Below, piece after piece: positions 3,720-58,461 of a stretch of 64,000 nucleotides of DNA. The stretch is from positions 87,606,001 to 87,670,000 of the forward strand of contig OX597818.1 of the NCBI GenBank assembly GCA_951406725.2, in the 5' to 3' direction. Origin of the DNA: Octopus vulgaris. Its lineage: Eukaryota. The notes beneath the pieces were generated by a model. That model was given only the letters and a program-made list of their open reading frames with translations, was not told the DNA's origin and ran no database searches. The position numbers and the translations under genes were made by a program. Each line of letters begins with the position of its first letter. The stretch's first letter is position 1.

Positions 3720-4287
3720 TTCTTTTCTTCTCTAGGCGCAAGGCTCGAAATTTTGAGCCTCTTACTGGGGTTTATTAGATCGACACCAGTAAGCAACTGG
3801 TATTTAATTTATCGACCCCAAAAGGACGAAAGGCAAAGTCAACCTCAGCAGAATTTGAACTCAGAACGTAAAGACAGACGAAATACGTATTTCATTACTA
3901 CCCACAAGGGACTAAACACAGAGGGGACAAACAAGGACAGACAAACGGATTAAGTCGATTTTATCGACCCCAGTGCGTAACTGGTACTTATTCAACCCCG
4001 AAAGGATGAAAGGCAAAGTCGACCTCGGCGGAATTTGAACTCAGAACGTAGCGGCAGACGAAATACCTATTTCTTTACTACTCACAAGGGGCTAAACAGA
4101 GAGGGGACAAACAAGGACAGACAAACGGATTAAGTCGATTATATCGACTCCAGTGCGTAACTGGTACTTATCCAACCCCGAAAGGATGAAAGGCAAAGTC
4201 GACCTCGGCGGAATTTGAACTCAGGCAGGCGAAGTACGGCTACGCATTTCGCCCGTCGTGCTAACGATTCTGCCTGCTCGCTGCCTT
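3720..4287 (-). mobile_element. tRNA-derived SINE family A (octopus OK-like), trimeric, with 15-bp target site duplication
   Basis: Minus strand reads a tRNA-like head (A-box-like tggcagaatcgtta in the family, B-box gagttcaaattcc) and body ggtcgactttgcctttcatcctttcggggtcgataaa..taagtaccag. Three units of ~170-220 bp. AATTTGAAAGAATTA flanks both sides (3705-3719 and 4288-4302). Confidence 0.9.
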
Positions 4288-4684: not shown

Positions 4685-5500
4685 CAGACTGGCGGAATCG
4701 TTTGAAAATCGGATAAAATGCCATATGGTATTTTAGTTACGGCTCTTTACATGCTTAGTTCAAATCCTGCCGAGAACAAAAGTACTGTAATTCGTTTAAT
4801 CGATTAACCATTCCCCTACAATTTGCTGCTTTCTGTGTGTTGGAAAGTCTCATGAAAAATAGATAAGGCGGCGGGCTGGCAGAATTGCTCGTACGCTGGA
4901 CTAAATGCTTAGCAGCGTTTCGTCCGTCATTACGTTCTGAGTTCAAATTCCGCCAAGGTCGACTTTGCCGTTCATTCTTTCGGCATCGATAAAATAAGTA
5001 CCAGCTGAACTCTGGGGGTCGATAGAATCGACTTACATCTCATACGAAATTGTTGGTCTCATGCCAAAATTTGAAATCATTATGAGAAATACATTGAAGG
5101 CTGCGAGCTAGTAGAAATGCTTAGCAGTCTTTGGCTCGTCTTTATGTTCTGAGTTCAAATTCCGCCAAGGTCGACTTTGCCTTTCATCCTTCCAGTGTCG
5201 ATAAATTAAGTACCATTGAAACACTGGGGTCGATGTAATCGTATAGTCCCCTCCCCACAAATTTGAGGCTTTATGCTTCCAGTAGACCGCAAGCTGGCAG
5301 AATCGTTGGCACGCTGGACAAATTGCATAGTGGCATCTCGCCCGTCTATACATTCTAAGTTTAAATTCCGCTGAGGTCAGCTTTGCTTTTTATACTTTCG
5401 GAGTCGATAAATTAAGAACGAATTGCGTACTGGCGTCGATATAATCAACTGGCCCCACGTGCTCCAAAATTTCGACCCCTGTGCCTATAATAGAAAAGCA
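4685..5500 (+). mobile_element. Cluster of about four older SINE family A copies (short-tail type), head to tail
   Basis: Repeated ctggc(a/g)gaat...gttc(t)gagttcaaattccgcc(a/g)aggtcgactttgcc...gtcgataaa at ~4685, 4866, 5097 and 5290. More decayed pieces at 4400-4620. Confidence 0.85.
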
Positions 5501-10319: not shown

Positions 10320-10614
10320 AAGTTGTACATGGATCTGAATCCTAATGAATGCCAAAGTTGATTGAGAGTGGGATAGAAATAGGTCCGTCAACCCATGTTG
10401 CAATGGAGCGATTTGATAGGAAGTTATTGACCTAAGAGATGGGAAATAAGTGCGGCCTATAGGCAGGAGTTTTAATAAGAGATTTGCGCACCAGATTGCG
10501 CGACAAAATGTGGAGTTTTGCGTGCTGCGTGTTAACTTGCATTATTTACACCGCACTTGTTAGTAGCTGTAATAATGCTTTTGAGAGATCAAGGCGTGAA
10601 GCTGACAGAATCTT

Positions 10615-10988
10615 ATTTCTTTATTGCCCACAAGGGGTTAAACATAGAGGGGACAAACAAAAACAGACAAAGGGATTAAGTCGATTGCATCGACCCCATT
10701 GCTCAACTGGTACTTAATTTATCGACCCCGAAAAGATATAAGGTAAAGTCGACCTCGGCGGTATTTGAACTCACAATGTAACGGCAGACTAAATACCTAT
10801 TTCTTTACTACCCACAAGGGGTTAAACACAGAGAGGATAAACAAGGACAGACAAACGGATTAAGTCGATTATATCGACGCCCGTGCGTAACTCGTACTTA
10901 TTTAATCGACCCCGAAAGGATGAAAGGCAAAGTCGACCTCGGCGGAATTTGAACTCAGAACGTAGCGACAGACGAAATACCGGTAAGC
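10615..10988 (-). mobile_element. SINE family A dimer (long-tail type), 5'-truncated
   Basis: Two units of ~180 bp joined at aaatacc|tatttctttac (~10797), the same junction as at ~3887 and ~4067. Confidence 0.9.
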
Positions 10989-23959: not shown

Positions 23960-25219
23960 CGAGGGGCGTTCAATAAGTAATGCCCCTGACCCACTTCCCA
24001 TAGCAGTAGAGCAACGAAACTTCGCAGAGTTATTAGTCTTTTTCTACATAGGAACCACCCAGAGTTACGCATTTCTCCCATCGTTTGATGCATCTCTGAA
24101 GACCGTTTTTGTAGAAGACCCCAGCTTGGTCTTCCAACCACGACGTGACTTCAGAAATCAAGGCTGCATCATCTGGGAAACGCTTTCCTTTCAAAAACAA
24201 CTTCATGGCTGGGAAGATGTGAAAATCAGAGGGTGCAGGTCAGGAGATGGGGGATGAGTTCATACCCGCACGCCTGTGCTTCTGATCTGGCGACACGAGA
24301 GTTGTGGATCGGAGCGTTGTCCTGCAGGAGGAGGATGCCTTTGCTGATCTTGTCCCGCCTCTTGATTTTGATAGCTTCTCTTAATTTCCTCAAAAGTGAA
24401 GCATAATAGACTCCTGTAATTGTGGCACCCTTTGCCAAGAAATCTGTCATCACTACTCCGTCCTGGTCCCAGAAGACTGTGAGCATGACCTTGCCAGCGG
24501 AGGGCTGCACCCTTGCCTTCTTTGGAGGAGGTGAGTCACGGTGCTTCCACTGCATTGACTGGGCTTTGGTCTCTGGATCATCGTGATGGACCCCGGTTTC
24601 ATCCTGTGTAATCAGTCTTTTGAAAAAATTTGACTTATCTTCTTGGCACATCTTCAAATTCATCCTCGCGCTATCGACGCGTTCTTGCTTCTGGAAAGGT
24701 GTGAGCAGCCTGGGAATCCATCTGGCAGACACCTTTTGCATATGCAAATGGTCATGAATGATAGTTTCCACAGACCCGGTACTAATCTTGACCTCATGGG
24801 CTATTTGGCGAATAGTTATGCGTCGATCTTCCAAAATGGCAGCCTCAACTTGACGGACAGAAGGGGGCGACCAGATCTGGGAGCTGTTTCCACAAAGTTC
24901 CGACCATGTTTGAATTCACGATGCCAGCGTTTTACAAGGTCATATGATGGGGCATCATCACCATAAGTTACTTTTATTTCATCAAAAGTCTCCCGTGGTG
25001 TGCGTCCTTTCAAATACAAAAACCGCATCACTGCTCGACACTCAACAGGCTCCGTTTCACACTTGACTCAGTTCAAACACCTGTAAATCAGAAACCACAA
25101 TTAGTTCAGAGTAATTTGCCACTTACTCTATAGAGATATAAATGATTGCACATGAAAAAATTCAGCTAGATCAAACAACTGCAAGTGGGTCAGAGGCATT
25201 ACTTATTGAATGCCCCTCG
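23960..25219 (-). mobile_element. Full-length mariner (DD34D) copy with defective transposase
   Basis: TIRs cgaggggcgttcaataagtaatgcccctgacccactt at both ends with TA TSD. Motifs WIPRLL, ITQDETG, GKVMLTVFWD and LQDNAP. Frameshift and small deletions. Confidence 0.96.
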
Positions 25220-25926: not shown

Positions 25927-25931
<5 letters not shown>

Positions 25932-26154
25932 CTTTACTACCCACAAGGGGCTAAACACAGAGGGGACAAACAAGGACAGACAAAGGGATTAAGTCGACTA
26001 CATCGACCCCAGTGCGTAACTGGTACTTAATTTATCGACCCCGAAAGGATGAAAGGCAAAGTCGACCTCGGCGGAATTTGAACTCGGAACGTAACGACAG
26101 ACGAAATACGGCTACGAATTTCGCCCGGCGTGCTAACGTTTCTACCAGCTCGCC
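25927..26154 (-). mobile_element. SINE family A monomer (long tail)
   Basis: Near-complete head, body and tail, embedded in (TA)n. Confidence 0.92.
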
Positions 26155-26208: not shown

Positions 26209-26438
26209 TATTTCTTTATAGCCCACAAGGGGCTAAACATAGAGGGGACAAGCAAGGACAAACAAAGGGGTTAAGTCGATTACATCCAACCCGGTGCGTA
26301 ACTGGTACTTATTTAATCGACTCCGAAAGGATGAATGGCAAAGTCGAACTCAGTGGAATTTGAACCCAGAACATAACGGGAGACGAAATACTGCTAAGCA
26401 TTTCGCCCGGTGTGCTAACGATTCTGCCAGCTCACCTT
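26209..26438 (-). mobile_element. SINE family A monomer (long tail)
   Basis: Second near-complete copy about 55 bp from the previous one. Confidence 0.92.
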
Positions 26439-36062: not shown

Positions 36063-36139
36063 TAGACATACATACATGCATATATACATGTAGTAATAGC
36101 GTTGCCATTGTTGTAAGCGTCAATATATTTATTGCTATT

Positions 36140-36290
36140 TACGTTCTAAGTTCAAATTCCGCCGAGGTCAACTTTGCTTTTCATCCTTTCGGGGTCGATT
36201 AATTAAGTACCAGTTGCGTACTGGGGTCGTTCAAATCGACTGGTCCCCTCCCCCAAAATTTCGGGCATTGTACCTAGAGTAGAAAAGAAA
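36140..36290 (+). mobile_element. 5'-truncated SINE family A (short tail) with 15-bp TSD
   Basis: ATATTTATTGCTATT at 36125-36139 and 36291-36305 flanks the copy. Confidence 0.88.
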
Positions 36291-42895: not shown

Positions 42896-44187
42896 CGAGG
42901 GACGTTCAATAAGTAATGCCTCTGACCCACTTGCAGTTGTTTGATCTAGCTGTAATTTTGCATGTGCAATTATTTATATCTCTATAGAGTAAGTGGCAAA
43001 TTACAGCACTGAATTAATTGTGGTTTCTGATTTACAGGTGTTTGAACCGAATCAAGTGTTAAATGGAGCCTGTTGAGTGTCGAGCAGTGATCCGGTTTTT
43101 GTATTTGAAAGGACGCACACCACGGGAGACTTTTGATGAAATGAAAGTAACTTATGGTGATGATGCCCCATCATATGACCTTGTAAAACGCTGGCATCGT
43201 GAATTCAAACATGGTCGGAACTCTGTGGAAACAGCTCCCAGATCTGGTTGCCCCCTTCTGCCATTGATGAGGCATCTGTCCGTCAAGTTGAGGCTGCCAT
43301 TTTGGAAGATCGACGCATAGCTATTCGCCAAATAGCCCATGAGGTCAATATTAGTACCGGGTCTGTGGAAACTATCATTCATGACCATTTGCATATGAAA
43401 AAGGTATCTGCCAGATGGATTCCCAGGTTGCTCACGCCTTTCCAGAAGCAAGAACGCGTCGAGTGCTCGAGGGTGAATTTGGAGATGTGCCAAGAAGATG
43501 AGTCAAAATTTTTCAAAAGACTGATTACACAGGATGAAACCTGGGTCCATCACGATGATCCAGAGACCAAAGCCCAGTCAATGCAGTGGAAGCACCGTGA
43601 CTCACAACCTCCAAAGAAGGCAAGGGTGCAGCCCTCCGCTGGCAAGGTCATGCTCACAGTCTTCTGGGACCAGGACGGAGTAGTGATGACAGATTTCCTG
43701 GCAAAGGGTACCACAATTGCAGGAGCCTATTATGCTTCACTTTTGAGGAAATTAAGAGAAGCTATCAAAATCAAGAGGCGGGGCAAGATCAGCTAAGGCA
43801 TCCTCCTCCTGCAGGACAACGCTCCAGTCCACAACTAGCTTGTCGCCAGATCAGAAGCACAGGCGTATGGCTATGAACTCCTCCCCCCAATCCCCTACTT
43901 TCTTGACCTTGCACCCTCTGATTTTCACCTCTTCCCAATCATGAAGTTGTTTTTGAAAGGAAAGCGTTTCCCAGATGATGCAGCTTTGATTTCTGAAGTC
44001 GCGTTCAGGTTGGAGGACCAAGCTGGGGTCTTCTATAAAAACGGTCTCCAGAGCTGCATCAAACAATGGGAGAAATGCGTAACTCTGGGTGGTTCCTATG
44101 TAGAAAAAGACTAATAACTGTGCCAAGTTTCGTTGCTCTACTGCTATGGGAAGTGGGTCAGGGGCATTACTTATTGAACGCCCCTCG
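42896..44187 (+). mobile_element. Full-length mariner (DD34D) copy, same family as 23960-25219, defective
   Basis: TIRs and TA TSD. ORF starts 43063 (MEPVECRAVIRFLYLKG), frameshift near 43250, ITQDETWVH, stop codons near 43794 and 43836. Confidence 0.96.
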
Positions 44188-49475: not shown

Positions 49476-49638
49476 AGGCGTAGGAGTGGCTGTGTGGTAA
49501 GTAGTTTGCTTACCAACCACATGGTTCCAGGTTCAGTCCCACTGCGTGGCACTTTGGGCAAGTGTCTTCTACTATAGCCTCGGGCCGACCAAAGCCTTGT
49601 GAGTGGATTTGGTAGACGGAAACTGAAAGAAGCCCGTC

Positions 49639-49717
<79 letters not shown>

Positions 49718-49931
49718 TTTGTGTATCGGTGTTTGTCCCCCCCAACATCGCTTGACAACTGATGGTGGTGTGTTTGCGTCCCCATAACTTAGCGGTTCGG
49801 CAAAAAGAAACCGATAGACTAAGTACTAGGCTTACAAAGAATAATCCTGGGGTCGATTTGCTCGACTAAAGGCGGTGCTCCAGCATGGCCACAGTCAAAT
49901 GACTGAATCAAGTAAAAGAGTAAAAGAGTAA
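49476..49931 (+). mobile_element. SINE family B (octopus OR-like, CORE-like domain), full length
   Basis: tRNA-like head (A box tggctgtgtggtaa, B box ggttcagtccc), CORE-like gtggcac(c/t)ttgggcaagtgtcttc, internal (TA)n(TG)n, tail ending (taaaagag)n. Confidence 0.93.
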
Positions 49932-55424: not shown

Positions 55425-56195
55425 GGCTTTAGTCTTCCCGAGGCTACAGTAGAAGACACTTGCTCAAGGTGCCACGCTGTTGGTGTGAGCCCGGAACGAT
55501 GTGGTTGGGAAGCAAGCTTCTTAACTACATAATCACCATCATTCGCAGTTTCCACATCAGCAGTAACACTGACATAATCTATTTTAAGCGGATGGATGGA
55601 AACAGATGTATATGATCAGTCTAGACATCTTGCATGTACTCAACAATGAACATAATAACATAATGAGATTAGATAATGGAATCCTGAATAATTACTCTTT
55701 ATTGTACAGCTACTCCAGATAACGGCATGTTAGGCAGTTCGGTTCATCTACTTAAACAGAAATCGGGAAGAGAAATACTAATTATATCTGTCGAAAGTTA
55801 TGTATTCGTCCATATCCTGCAAGCTAGAGAATACAATCAACACCGATAAAGATCGTAGTTTCTCTTGCACTTGTGATCGATACGTCATACTTTAACTAGA
55901 AATTTACGCCTCTGTTATCCAAGAACGAGAGAAAGCAGCTAAATATCTTACCATCAAGAGGAATTAAGGTGTCTCAAGACACTGAAGTATAAAATGTTGA
56001 TTGTACCATACCAGTGCATAAATTATCATTCATATCGTCGATTTCTTAAATGTCATTGAGATACTAACTTCCTAACGGCGCTAAAAAAAAAGAACATCTG
56101 AAATCTCAGAAAGGATTGCTCTGATGGTTTTTATAAAGTCACACCAGAACCACAATATAACCTTAAAAATAAATGATATTCGTGGAACATTCCAG

Positions 56196-56567
56196 TGGTA
56201 AGTAGTATGCTTACCAACCACATAGTTCTGGGTTCAGTCCCACTGCGTGACACCTTGGGCAAGTGTTTCTACTATAGCTTCGGGCCGGCCAAAGCCTTGA
56301 GTGGATTTGGTAGACGTAAACTGAAAGAATCCCGTCGTATATATGTATATATGTGTGTGTTTGTGTCTGTGTTTGTCCACCCAACATCGCTTGACAACCG
56401 ATGCTGGTGTGTTTACGTCCCCGTAACTTAGCGGTTCGGCAAAAAGGAGACCGATAGAATAAGTACTAGGCTTACAAAGAATAAGTGCTGGGGTTGATTT
56501 GCTCAACTAAAGGTGGTGCTCCAGCATGACCGCAGTCAAATGACTGAAACGAATAAAAGAGTAAAGA
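56196..56567 (+). mobile_element. SINE family B, near full length
   Basis: Matches the 49476 copy. A further minus-strand head piece lies at 55425-55530. Confidence 0.92.
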
Positions 56568-57035
56568 GAGACTAGTTATTGTTGTACGAGACAAGTGCAA
56601 AAATCATGCTCTGTCGTAGCGATCAGCTTCTTGCAGATACGAGGGTCTCGTCAAAAATTACGATAAGGTCTTCTATGGAAAATAAATGAGAATCATACAG
56701 CTCTTATACCCAGGCTACAGATTTTCAGTTGTATTTATTTTCAGATGTAATTTGGGTTGCGTAACATGATTTGCATAAACGCGTAGAGATAACTGAACTT
56801 CTGGAGAAAAGCACAAAGCTAACTGATTAGCTTTCTCCGAAGTGAAAATTTTGTAAAGCGTTTCAGGTCTGTGAGTAGTCAGAACAATGCATTGTTTTAG
56901 AGACGCACAACTGTCTGATGATTGTTTGCGTAAAACTCTGAGGTACATTTCGTGGTGTCTTTTCAACTTCACTAAAATAAAATCCTAATGTACCTTTGGT
57001 ATTCGAGTAGTATTTTCCCCATCTCGTTTTGAACC

Positions 57036-57114
<79 letters not shown>

Positions 57115-57115
<1 letters not shown>

Positions 57116-58385
57116 AAGGAGGACTGGGCATGCCGTAGTTGATGATGCGCAGACACGCGCTGAGACTGCGACATCTCCGGCTCTATGTAGACGACGGTGA
57201 ACAGGTGTGGTCGCCGTTTGTGAGGTACGCGTTCCCGCAGCTCGTCTCCATGACCGAACTGCAGTCGTGGATCAAAAAGAGGCCGAGGAAGGGCGTATGG
57301 CACCGCGAGTGTCGCGTTGCTCTCAAGCAACTCTGCCGTCCCGGGTCGACCTTGAGTGACTTCAACACAACCAAAGCATTCTATAGGGGATTAGTGGAGG
57401 GGAGGTACGACGACGATCTTGGGGCAAACCTGGGCGTCGACGAGGAATACCTGACCCGCCTGTTTCAAACGACTTTCGGCCCGGGACCTATGGACAACTT
57501 CCAGAGATCCCTGGCCTGGCGGTGCTACCGAGAAGCGCTACCCGTTCGGGATAAGCTCTATAGGCATGGCTCGAGAAACACGGGGCTGACCTGCCCGAGA
57601 TGCGGGCAGAGCGACGAAACCGCTCTGCACGCAATCGTGCAGTGTCCAGCAATTTCCGACATGTGGGCTTATGTCGAACAACTGCTGTCACGCGTGGGAC
57701 GTGTCGGTTTATCAGCCGAGTCTATCGTTAATATCGTTACGCCTCCTTCCTTCAAACGGGAAGGAAGAGCTATTATTATCATACTTGTGGCTATGGCGAA
57801 AGAATGTATCTGGTGGAGGCGCCTGAAAGGATTAGAGACAAACACTTTCCTCTCTGGTCAATCTCTCATCAACTTCTTCAAGTATCACTTGAAGAGGAAA
57901 GTGAGAGTAGAGAGGCAATTTTTGTCTAGTGAATGTTTTAAAAAAAGATCGGTGAATGTAGCAAGGATGGCACGTATGAATGACGAAGCCACCTTGACTA
58001 TGATTCTATGAACCGTAAAAATTAATACAGAGAGTTGCTTATTTGCAAAAAAAAAAGAAAGAAATATAACATGTGACTTCATTGACCGAGGTCTTTTCCG
58101 TAGGCTTTTCTTTCCACGGGTAAACCTCACCTGTCCTCCCTTTTACACTTCATATTGACATTTCTGTGATAACGATCCCTATTGATCAAATTTTTTTCTC
58201 TTCCCTTTTTTTTCCTCTCCCCCCTTTTTTAAAAAAAATTTTATTCCCTCCTTTTTTGTCCTCTTTCTTTCCCTTTACGATTCCTTTTGATCGAAAACCA
58301 AACCCCCTTTTTTTACCCCCAAAAGACAAGCTCTACCTTGTAATTTGTCCTGTCTGTGTGCAGCCCTGTGTGGCTAATAAAGAAA
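57115..58385 (+). mobile_element. 5'-truncated Tx1/L1-group LINE (ORF2 C-terminus with Cys/His zinc finger, ORF 57139-58011, and 3' UTR)
   Basis: KGGLGMP*L, then LAWRCYREALPVRDKL...CPRCGQSDETALHAIVQC...W..V...AKECIWWRR. GC content well above the flanks. Ends aataaagaaa. (TATC)n on both sides. Confidence 0.9.
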
Positions 58386-58390
58386 CATAC

Positions 58391-58461
<71 letters not shown>

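What the first reader, a model, noticed from the sequence alone, without database searches (positions are those of the whole stretch)
58336..58385. Tx1-like LINE 3' terminus matches the long tail of SINE family A: a Tx1-partnered SINE
Seen: LINE ccttgtaatttgtcctgtctgtgtgcagccctgtgtggctaataaagaaa versus SINE (minus strand at ~25929-25975) ccttg---tttgtcccctctgtgtttagccccttgtgggtagtaaagaaa, 39 of 47 aligned bases by hand count, ending at the same point. Both keep a small hairpin (AGCC..GGCT; AGCCC..GGG(C)T) before the AATAAA-like signal. Established: shared tails mark LINE-dependent SINEs, mostly for CR1/L2/RTE partners. Inference: SINE A switched from a short tail to a Tx1 tail and may have gained target specificity, which would explain its fixed-junction multimers.
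Basis: partly seen in the sequence, partly recalled or inferred. Interest (0 to 1): 0.75.

Follow-up and report, generated by a model that had tools for sequence, protein, structure and literature searches.

The report
Octopus SINE borrows Tx1 hairpin tails
A very abundant short jumping element in this (probably octopus) genome ends in the same small hairpin-type tail as a whole group of L1-related Tx1-like retrotransposons that have no poly(A) tail, so these elements likely copy it; but the particular LINE flagged here is a microsatellite-targeting cousin and is likely not its carrier.

Summary
The match is real: 39 of 47 bases at consensus level, same end point. It is not special to this LINE. 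The window's LINE (family A) is a 5'-truncated Tx1-like copy that sits in (TATC)n microsatellites (26 of 27 copies; long-tail SINEs 0 of 70). About ten sibling families share a poly(A)-less stem-loop terminus whose stem covaries, and several match the SINE better (exact runs of 22-32 nt against 12; family A best for 2 of 68 SINE tails). The SINE tail looks like a mosaic of two sibling tails. One older short tail also matches a Tx1-type terminus over 19 nt, so this is likely a swap within the clade, not a first acquisition. SINE copies carry ~16-bp target duplications, and the four bases after the tail predict the target (p=7e-6). Multimers come from insertion into the SINE's own head and probably from arrays moving as units. 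I found no LINE at that head site. No Tx1-tail SINE pair appeared in ten literature searches; Repbase was not available. This scan noted the same pairing before, elsewhere in this genome and in another genome.

The parts
57115..58387 (+). 5'-truncated copy of Tx1-like LINE family A (end of ORF2, about 375-nt 3' UTR, no poly(A))
   Evidence: 92-95% identical to 29 other copies
57139..58011 (+). C-terminal 290 codons of ORF2, with zf-RVT domain
   Evidence: PF13966, E 7e-8
58336..58387 (+). LINE 3' terminus homologous to the SINE long tail; hairpin 58362-58375, AATAAA 58376-58381
57036..57114 (+). (TATC)n microsatellite, left half of the target
58388..58461 (+). (TATC)n microsatellite, right half of the target
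25927..26154 (-). full-length long-tail SINE copy (A/B-box-like head, body, 60-nt tail) in (TA)n
26209..26436 (-). second long-tail SINE copy
3722..4286 (-). SINE trimer (long, long from position 46, short-tail from position 45) flanked by one 15-bp duplication; ends approximate
10614..10980 (-). two long-tail units joined at the position-46 junction
4870..5500 (+). three older short-tail SINE copies
36139..36290 (+). short-tail SINE copy, head missing

Best explanation
The SINE's young subfamilies end in a tail homologous to the poly(A)-less stem-loop terminus shared by a clade of Tx1-like LINEs, and the SINE is likely copied by non-site-specific members of that clade rather than by the (TATC)n-targeting family in this window. 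Shown: tail homology, covarying stem just before AATAAA in all families sampled, better matches in families B, D, E and K, target duplications of about 16 bp, younger age of long-tail copies. Inferred: ORF2p binds the stem-loop (stringent recognition) and starts reverse transcription right behind it; the tail was gained by template switching and is either a recombinant of an E-type upstream part and a D/B-type hairpin or comes from a family I did not sample; older short tails are earlier tails from the same clade. Inferred: the 4-7 bases that follow the tail in each master copy's RNA pair with the nicked DNA, which sets the target (GGTA, AGAA or TATA). Because those bases are themselves SINE-head sequence in masters that once landed in a SINE head, new copies return to the same head positions (46 and about 12); such arrays then also move as units.
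For: Tail scores: B 58, E1/E3 54, D/B2/K 53, E2 50, A 45. Longest exact shared run: E3 32 nt, E1 29, D 27, K 24, B 22, A 12. Anchored hairpin score over 15 family representatives 154 vs 74.5 +/- 14.4, maximum 121 in 2000 shuffles; all 4 pairs show double changes, 0 of 500 shuffles reach the covariation score, slid controls lower. B, B2, D, K flanks are heterogeneous, 0 of 52 in TATC; D, B2 and G have copies with open ORF2 frames of about 1130 codons. SINE duplications of 10 bp or more in 15 of 33, median 16, control 0.4; full-length LINE relatives show 16 and 20 bp. In unique flanks, the CAAT subfamily is followed by AGAA in 9 of 11 and the TAGT/TAAT subfamilies by GGTA in 12 of 24 and AGAA in 1 (Fisher p=7e-6, background 0.7% and 0.3%); the duplication starts with those bases. 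One duplication spans the whole array in L078, L283, L110 and the window trimer; a duplicated head with a 13-16 bp repeat shows fresh insertion in L068 and L056.
Against: No single LINE family matches the whole tail; a pattern for an E-type upstream part joined to the SINE hairpin returned 8 of 8 SINE variants. Only some of the families were sampled (25,800 zf-RVT candidates, 150 scored, about 50 fetched). RNAalifold found no consensus structure on the ungapped alignment, single tails fold no better than shuffles, only 71% of cells pair, and the families are related, so the shuffle controls overstate significance. Short tail 1 has no significant match to any LINE tail (best z 3.6), and the short-tail-2 match is to a family with no ORF2 found within 1.5 kb upstream on its own strand. 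The subfamily-target link could equally come from different LINE endonucleases. No RNA or mobilisation data.
Confidence: 0.68

Rival explanations
1. A dedicated Tx1 family with an endonuclease specific for the SINE head makes the fixed junctions and is the true donor of the tail (claimed by earlier notes of this scan).
For: 30 of 70 long-tail units are followed directly by SINE-head sequence; the junction recurs in contigs of 4 of 4 public runs laid; Tx1 families that target other transposons are known (PMC4494074); several earlier AI notes report such a family (unchecked).
Against: 0 of 135 LINE-type tails examined lie in the SINE head; pattern searches gave 0 hits, 0 LINEs in 4 of 5 hits read and 0 LINEs in 30 of 172 hits. 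Different SINE subfamilies use different 4-mers, also in unique DNA.
Confidence: 0.25
2. One reading: family A (this LINE) is the partner and gave the SINE its target specificity.
For: 39/47 match; A is abundant (2574 candidates) and young (tails 1.9% from consensus among best hits).
Against: A is followed by TATC in 26 of 27 copies, long-tail SINEs in 0 of 70; best match for 2 of 68 tails; 6-nt loop against the SINE's 5-nt loop.
Confidence: 0.04
3. The tail is Tx1-derived but now only a relic, and another LINE clade (RTE, CR1, Dong) does the mobilising; or the sequence moved from SINE to LINEs.
For: These clades are abundant in octopus (PMC13282606); RTE elements also leave target duplications (recalled).
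Against: The motif is present with compensatory changes in families whose ORF2 are only about 55-73% identical, so it is older in the LINEs than the 5%-diverged SINE tail; SINE and family D/E end at the same base.
Confidence: 0.07
4. Chance or convergence of pyrimidine-rich ends with AATAAA.
For: Tails are short and low in complexity; family H scores only 18.
Against: Exact runs of 27-32 nt; z 11-16.
Confidence: 0.01

Closest known systems
SINEU with Tx1-Mar LINEs, crocodilians (Kojima 2015, PMC4494074; passages and sections 15, 16 read)
   Same: SINE inferred to be moved by Tx1-clade LINEs; Tx1 families with microsatellite and transposon targets coexist.
   Different: SINEU has snRNA heads and a poly(A) tail; the link rests on shared target, age and 5' heads, not on a shared 3' stem-loop. 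Here the link is the tail, and the site-specific family is not the partner.
ZmSINE2/3 with LINE1-1_ZM, and SINEX-3_CR with L1-1_CR (Ohshima 2012 PMC3472496 passages; Ohshima 2013 PMC3747384 passages and Table 1)
   Same: L1-superfamily LINE sharing a short 3' end with a tRNA SINE; stem-loop with compensatory changes; stringent recognition proposed.
   Different: Plants and algae; the only three L1-tail SINEs in that table of 58 pairs, none Tx1, none animal. Here the LINEs lack poly(A), and the motif spans about ten families.
Kibi, Koshi and crocodilian (TTCC)n/(TTTC)n Tx1 families (as described in PMC4494074)
   Same: Tx1-type LINE specific for a microsatellite, like family A.
   Different: Target is (TATC)n/(GATA)n; relationship to Kibi/Koshi not tested.
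Octopus tRNA SINEs OK/OR1/OR2 (Ohshima and Okada 1994; seen only as a citation) and the tRNA-Deu/tRNA-Core classes in octopus annotations (PMC8967140, PMC13282606, passages)
   Same: The SINE itself is very likely an already catalogued octopus family; L1-Tx1 (80 families) and tRNA-Deu (17) are listed in the supplement of PMC13282606.
   Different: I could not compare sequences; none of the passages names a partner LINE.
SINE tail exchange (Kojima 2018 PMC5786205; Nishihara 2016 PMC4824008; passages)
   Same: One body with successive LINE-derived tails.
   Different: Here the swaps seem to stay within one LINE clade and keep the loop.

Membership tests
L1/Tx1 superfamily LINE (family A) | ORF2 with apurinic-type endonuclease, reverse transcriptase and C-terminal zinc motif | tested here: met
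   PF03372, PF00078, PF13966 in L037 and L044; 10 of 10 PDB hits are L1 ORF2p or its endonuclease
Tx1 clade | ORF1 with a zinc knuckle | tested here: inconclusive
   PF00098 E 0.0019, under the cut-off, in L037; none in L036
Tx1 clade | target preference in more than 20% of flanks (Kojima's criterion) | tested here: met
   26 of 27 in (TATC)n; truncated copies have it on both sides
Tx1 clade | RT clusters with named Tx1L/Kibi/Koshi/Keno | not testable with these tools
   No named references were returned; the Tx1 label is therefore inferred
tRNA-derived SINE | short, interspersed, high copy number | tested here: met
   about 228 nt; 165 body-covering units in 990 kb
tRNA-derived SINE | tRNA-related head with A and B boxes | tested here: inconclusive
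   Box-like motifs by eye and no TTTT in the copy, but no ARAGORN or Rfam tRNA hit
Stringent SINE-LINE pair | shared 3'-terminal sequence ending at the same point | tested here: met
Stringent SINE-LINE pair | conserved stem-loop with compensatory changes | tested here: met
   weaker
Stringent SINE-LINE pair | shared insertion signature and overlapping age | tested here: inconclusive
   duplication length and about 5% divergence fit B, D, E; target does not fit A; only 2-3 LINE duplications seen
Stringent SINE-LINE pair | tail-dependent trans-mobilisation | not testable with these tools
   needs an assay
SINEU/Tx1-Mar-type co-targeting | SINE and LINE share one target site | tested here: not met
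   not for family A; no other family found at the SINE-head site, sampling incomplete

The most novel reading that the evidence does not exclude
An animal L1-superfamily clade has replaced poly(A) recognition with a clade-wide stem-loop code; one SINE has ridden this clade for tens of millions of years by swapping and even recombining tails between member families, and it programmes its own landing site with the few RNA bases behind the tail, so that it homes to its own head without needing a site-specific endonuclease.
Probability: 0.3. Interest if true: 0.75.

Novelty: new variant of a known kind. Interest (0 to 1): 0.52.

Why it matters
L1-superfamily elements are the standard exception to SINE-LINE tail sharing: 3 L1-tail SINEs among 58 pairs, all in plants or algae (PMC3747384). 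An animal, poly(A)-less Tx1-like clade with a covarying terminal hairpin and a passenger of roughly 200,000 copies (70 per 990 kb, scaled to 2.8 Gb) would bear directly on whether stringent recognition is ancestral in L1-like elements, and would name the engine behind a major part of an octopus-type genome. The natural series of tails (same loop, different stems, different targets) is a ready-made set for testing RNA recognition and for separating endonuclease specificity from RNA-DNA pairing in target choice.

Tried and rejected
Search for a single donor with the whole tail: two patterns returned only SINE variants (2 of 2; 8 of 8). Search for a LINE at SINE positions 46 or 12: none. RNAalifold consensus: none, because loop lengths differ and the alignment has no loop gaps. 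Folding z-scores of single tails -0.13 to -1.9. tRNA scans blank. ORF2 tree (28 rows): the families of this genome group apart from outgroups with weak support (80/97) and A's sister is unresolved, so no donor or order of events is claimed. Hammerhead-like flanks not confirmed by Rfam. No RNA holder listed. Protein atlas gave no answer. Gilbert and Labuda 1999 not held. Sixty further Tx1 3' ends could not be fetched, so family sampling stays incomplete. My split of short tails into types 1 and 2 (65 and 20) misfiles some copies; only their sum, 85 of 165, is reliable. Three look-ups of earlier findings by sequence and one by place were blank.

Full report
Setting. The window is from a 2.8-Gb animal genome. 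The nearest named relative of the LINE's ORF2 is an Argonauta hians protein at 65% identity, so the host is probably an octopod (inference).

Observation. The LINE end at 58336-58385 and the SINE tail at 25929-25975(-) read as stated. Blastn gives 34/42, E=6e-6 within the window. At consensus level the alignment is 39 of 47 and both end at AAAGAAA; score 45, maximum 30 in 300 dinucleotide shuffles.

The LINE. 57115-58387 is a 5'-truncated copy between two (TATC)n tracts. Longer copies give ORF1 with a weak zinc knuckle and ORF2 with endonuclease, RT and zf-RVT; PDB hits are all human L1 ORF2p. There is no poly(A). 26 of 27 distinct copies are followed by TATC repeats, and truncated copies have them on the 5' side too. 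This is a microsatellite-specific element of the kind described for Kibi and Koshi (PMC4494074, passages). The Tx1 label is inferred from architecture and targeting; no named Tx1 reference was available for a tree.

The SINE. In 99 evenly placed 10-kb stretches (990 kb, leaving out one stretch chosen from a hint) there were 215 hits, 165 covering the body: 70 long-tail, 85 short-tail, 10 other. Body divergence is 4.8% for long-tail (n=60) and about 16% for short-tail copies (n=67). None of the 70 long-tail units is followed by TATC. So family A's target is not the SINE's.

Better partners. Random sampling, a zf-RVT family search (25,800 candidates, 150 scored, about 50 fetched) and DNA or pattern searches gave about ten further families with ORF2 54-73% identical to A. 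All end in a short hairpin, AATAAA and a few A-rich bases. Against the SINE consensus tail, B scores 58, E1 and E3 54, D, B2 and K 53, E2 50, A 45, C and G 39, H 18. For 68 natural SINE tails the best family was B 27, E3 16, K 14, D 7, E1 6, A 2, E2 2, B2 2 (ties counted). The longest exact shared runs are 32 nt with E3 and 29 with E1 (upstream half of the tail) and 27 with D (hairpin and end), against 12 with A. E families have a different hairpin, D a different upstream part. Patterns meant to catch a LINE with both halves returned only SINE variants. The tail is thus either a recombinant or from an unsampled family. B, B2, D and K insert in heterogeneous DNA, and their tails are 4-5% (K 13%) from consensus among the copies fetched, similar to the SINE (best hits, so biased young).

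The hairpin. Stems directly before AATAAA differ in sequence yet pair: GCC/GGC, CCC/GGG, CCT/AGG, GATT/AATC, AGGC/GCCT, ACC/GGT. Summed anchored score 154 against 74.5 +/- 14.4 in shuffles; individually only 1-2 of 15 reach p 0.05. On a fixed register, 4 of 4 pairs show double changes and slid controls are lower, with 71% of cells paired. Against this: no RNAalifold consensus, unremarkable folding energies, and related sequences are not independent. I take the hairpin as probable and its role in RNA recognition as inferred from stringent LINEs (PMC3472496, passages).

The short tails. Both short tails keep the CTTGT loop with stems TGGC/GCCA and AGGC/GCCT. Short tail 2 matches the end of family F over 19 exact bases (score 39, z 10); F has a Tx1-type 3' end but no ORF2 was found upstream. 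Short tail 1 has no significant partner among my families. Short-tail copies also show duplications (16 of 40, control mean 3.4). So the replacement of a short by a long tail is real and datable, but it was likely a move between related tails.

Targets and multimers. 30 of 70 long-tail units run straight into SINE-head sequence, 28 at position 46 and 2 near 12; the position-46 junction is in contigs of all four public runs laid. The rest lie in (TA)n or unique DNA with duplications (15 of 33, median 16 bp, control 0.4) that begin two bases after AAAGAAA. Their first four bases follow the SINE subfamily: AGAA in 9 of 11 CAAT copies, GGTA in 12 of 24 TAGT/TAAT copies (p=7e-6). GGTA and AGAA are exactly the head sequences at the two junctions. 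Arrays are of two kinds: a duplicated head with a 13-16 bp repeat marks fresh insertion (L068, L056), while one duplication around the whole array (L078, L283, L110, window trimer) fits movement as a unit or seamless re-insertion. Short-tail units at array ends are intermediate in age (0.089, n=11; alone 0.140; long 0.046) and array heads look young, which fits a mixture. The simplest model is pairing of the RNA bases behind the tail with the nicked target (a role for read-through 3' sequence in other site-specific LINEs is recalled, not found). A dedicated SINE-targeting LINE, as several earlier notes claim, remains possible: I saw none among 135 tails or in three pattern searches, but sampling was partial.

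Prior art. SINEU/Tx1-Mar is a published Tx1-mobilised SINE, with poly(A) and no shared tail cited (PMC4494074, sections 15-16). Table 1 of PMC3747384 (read) lists no Tx1 and no mollusc pair; its three L1-tail SINEs are from maize/sorghum and Chlamydomonas. Passages of PMC5786205, PMC4758252, PMC4824008, PMC3531059, PMC8967140, PMC12988792 and PMC13282606 (plus its one held supplement) name no partner for octopus SINEs. Ten searches found no description. Repbase, Dfam, SINEBase entries, Ohshima and Okada 1994 and other papers' supplements were not seen and could hold it. This scan recorded the tail sharing before (e1-9594145, same genome; e1-9580941, another genome).

Verdict. Real, homologous and probably functional tail sharing between an abundant SINE and a poly(A)-less Tx1-like clade; a new variant of a known kind. 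The flagged LINE is a cousin, not the carrier, and the multimers do not follow from its specificity. Interest 0.52.

Noticed in passing
window 57036-58461; L001-L046: Family A is an abundant, young (TATC)n/(GATA)n-specific LINE; a whole-word search for Tx1 + GATA + microsatellite + target + SINE + retrotransposon found no paper. Nested copies occur (L032, L044).
   Followed up: partly
L148-L171, L214, L285: Families C and I are followed by (ATT)n/(ATC)n (4 of 5 and 3 of 3); 23 of 85 short-tail SINE copies also are.
   Followed up: partly
L301-L325: Family F: element with a Tx1-type terminus and no ORF2 found upstream, probably another passenger; many copies share flanks with CTGATGA...GAAA-like motifs resembling hammerhead ribozymes of Penelope-type repeats by eye (motif recalled), as do L197, L203, L206, L219. 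Rfam did not confirm.
   Followed up: partly
L207 and C2:73.04-73.07 Mb: Head-to-tail array of a family with 1140-codon ORF2 at about 5.4-kb spacing.
   Followed up: no
L198, L210, L211, L213; L224, L225, L227, L228, L231: Families G and E1 each share a fixed 3' flank across copies, so they are further site-specific families with unidentified targets.
   Followed up: partly
window about 56170-56570 and 49600-49930: A second abundant SINE-like family (longer, with an internal TA/TG tract); one long-tail SINE sits in its head in L284, and L268 shows it interrupted twice at one position.
   Followed up: no
window 24249-24861 and 43275-43887: 613-nt inverted pair, 95% complementary: two copies of another young repeat.
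   Followed up: no
L065:8750-9800: Endonuclease-coding 5' part joined by an (AG)n tract to a family-A-like 3' UTR: possibly an internally deleted non-autonomous derivative.
   Followed up: no
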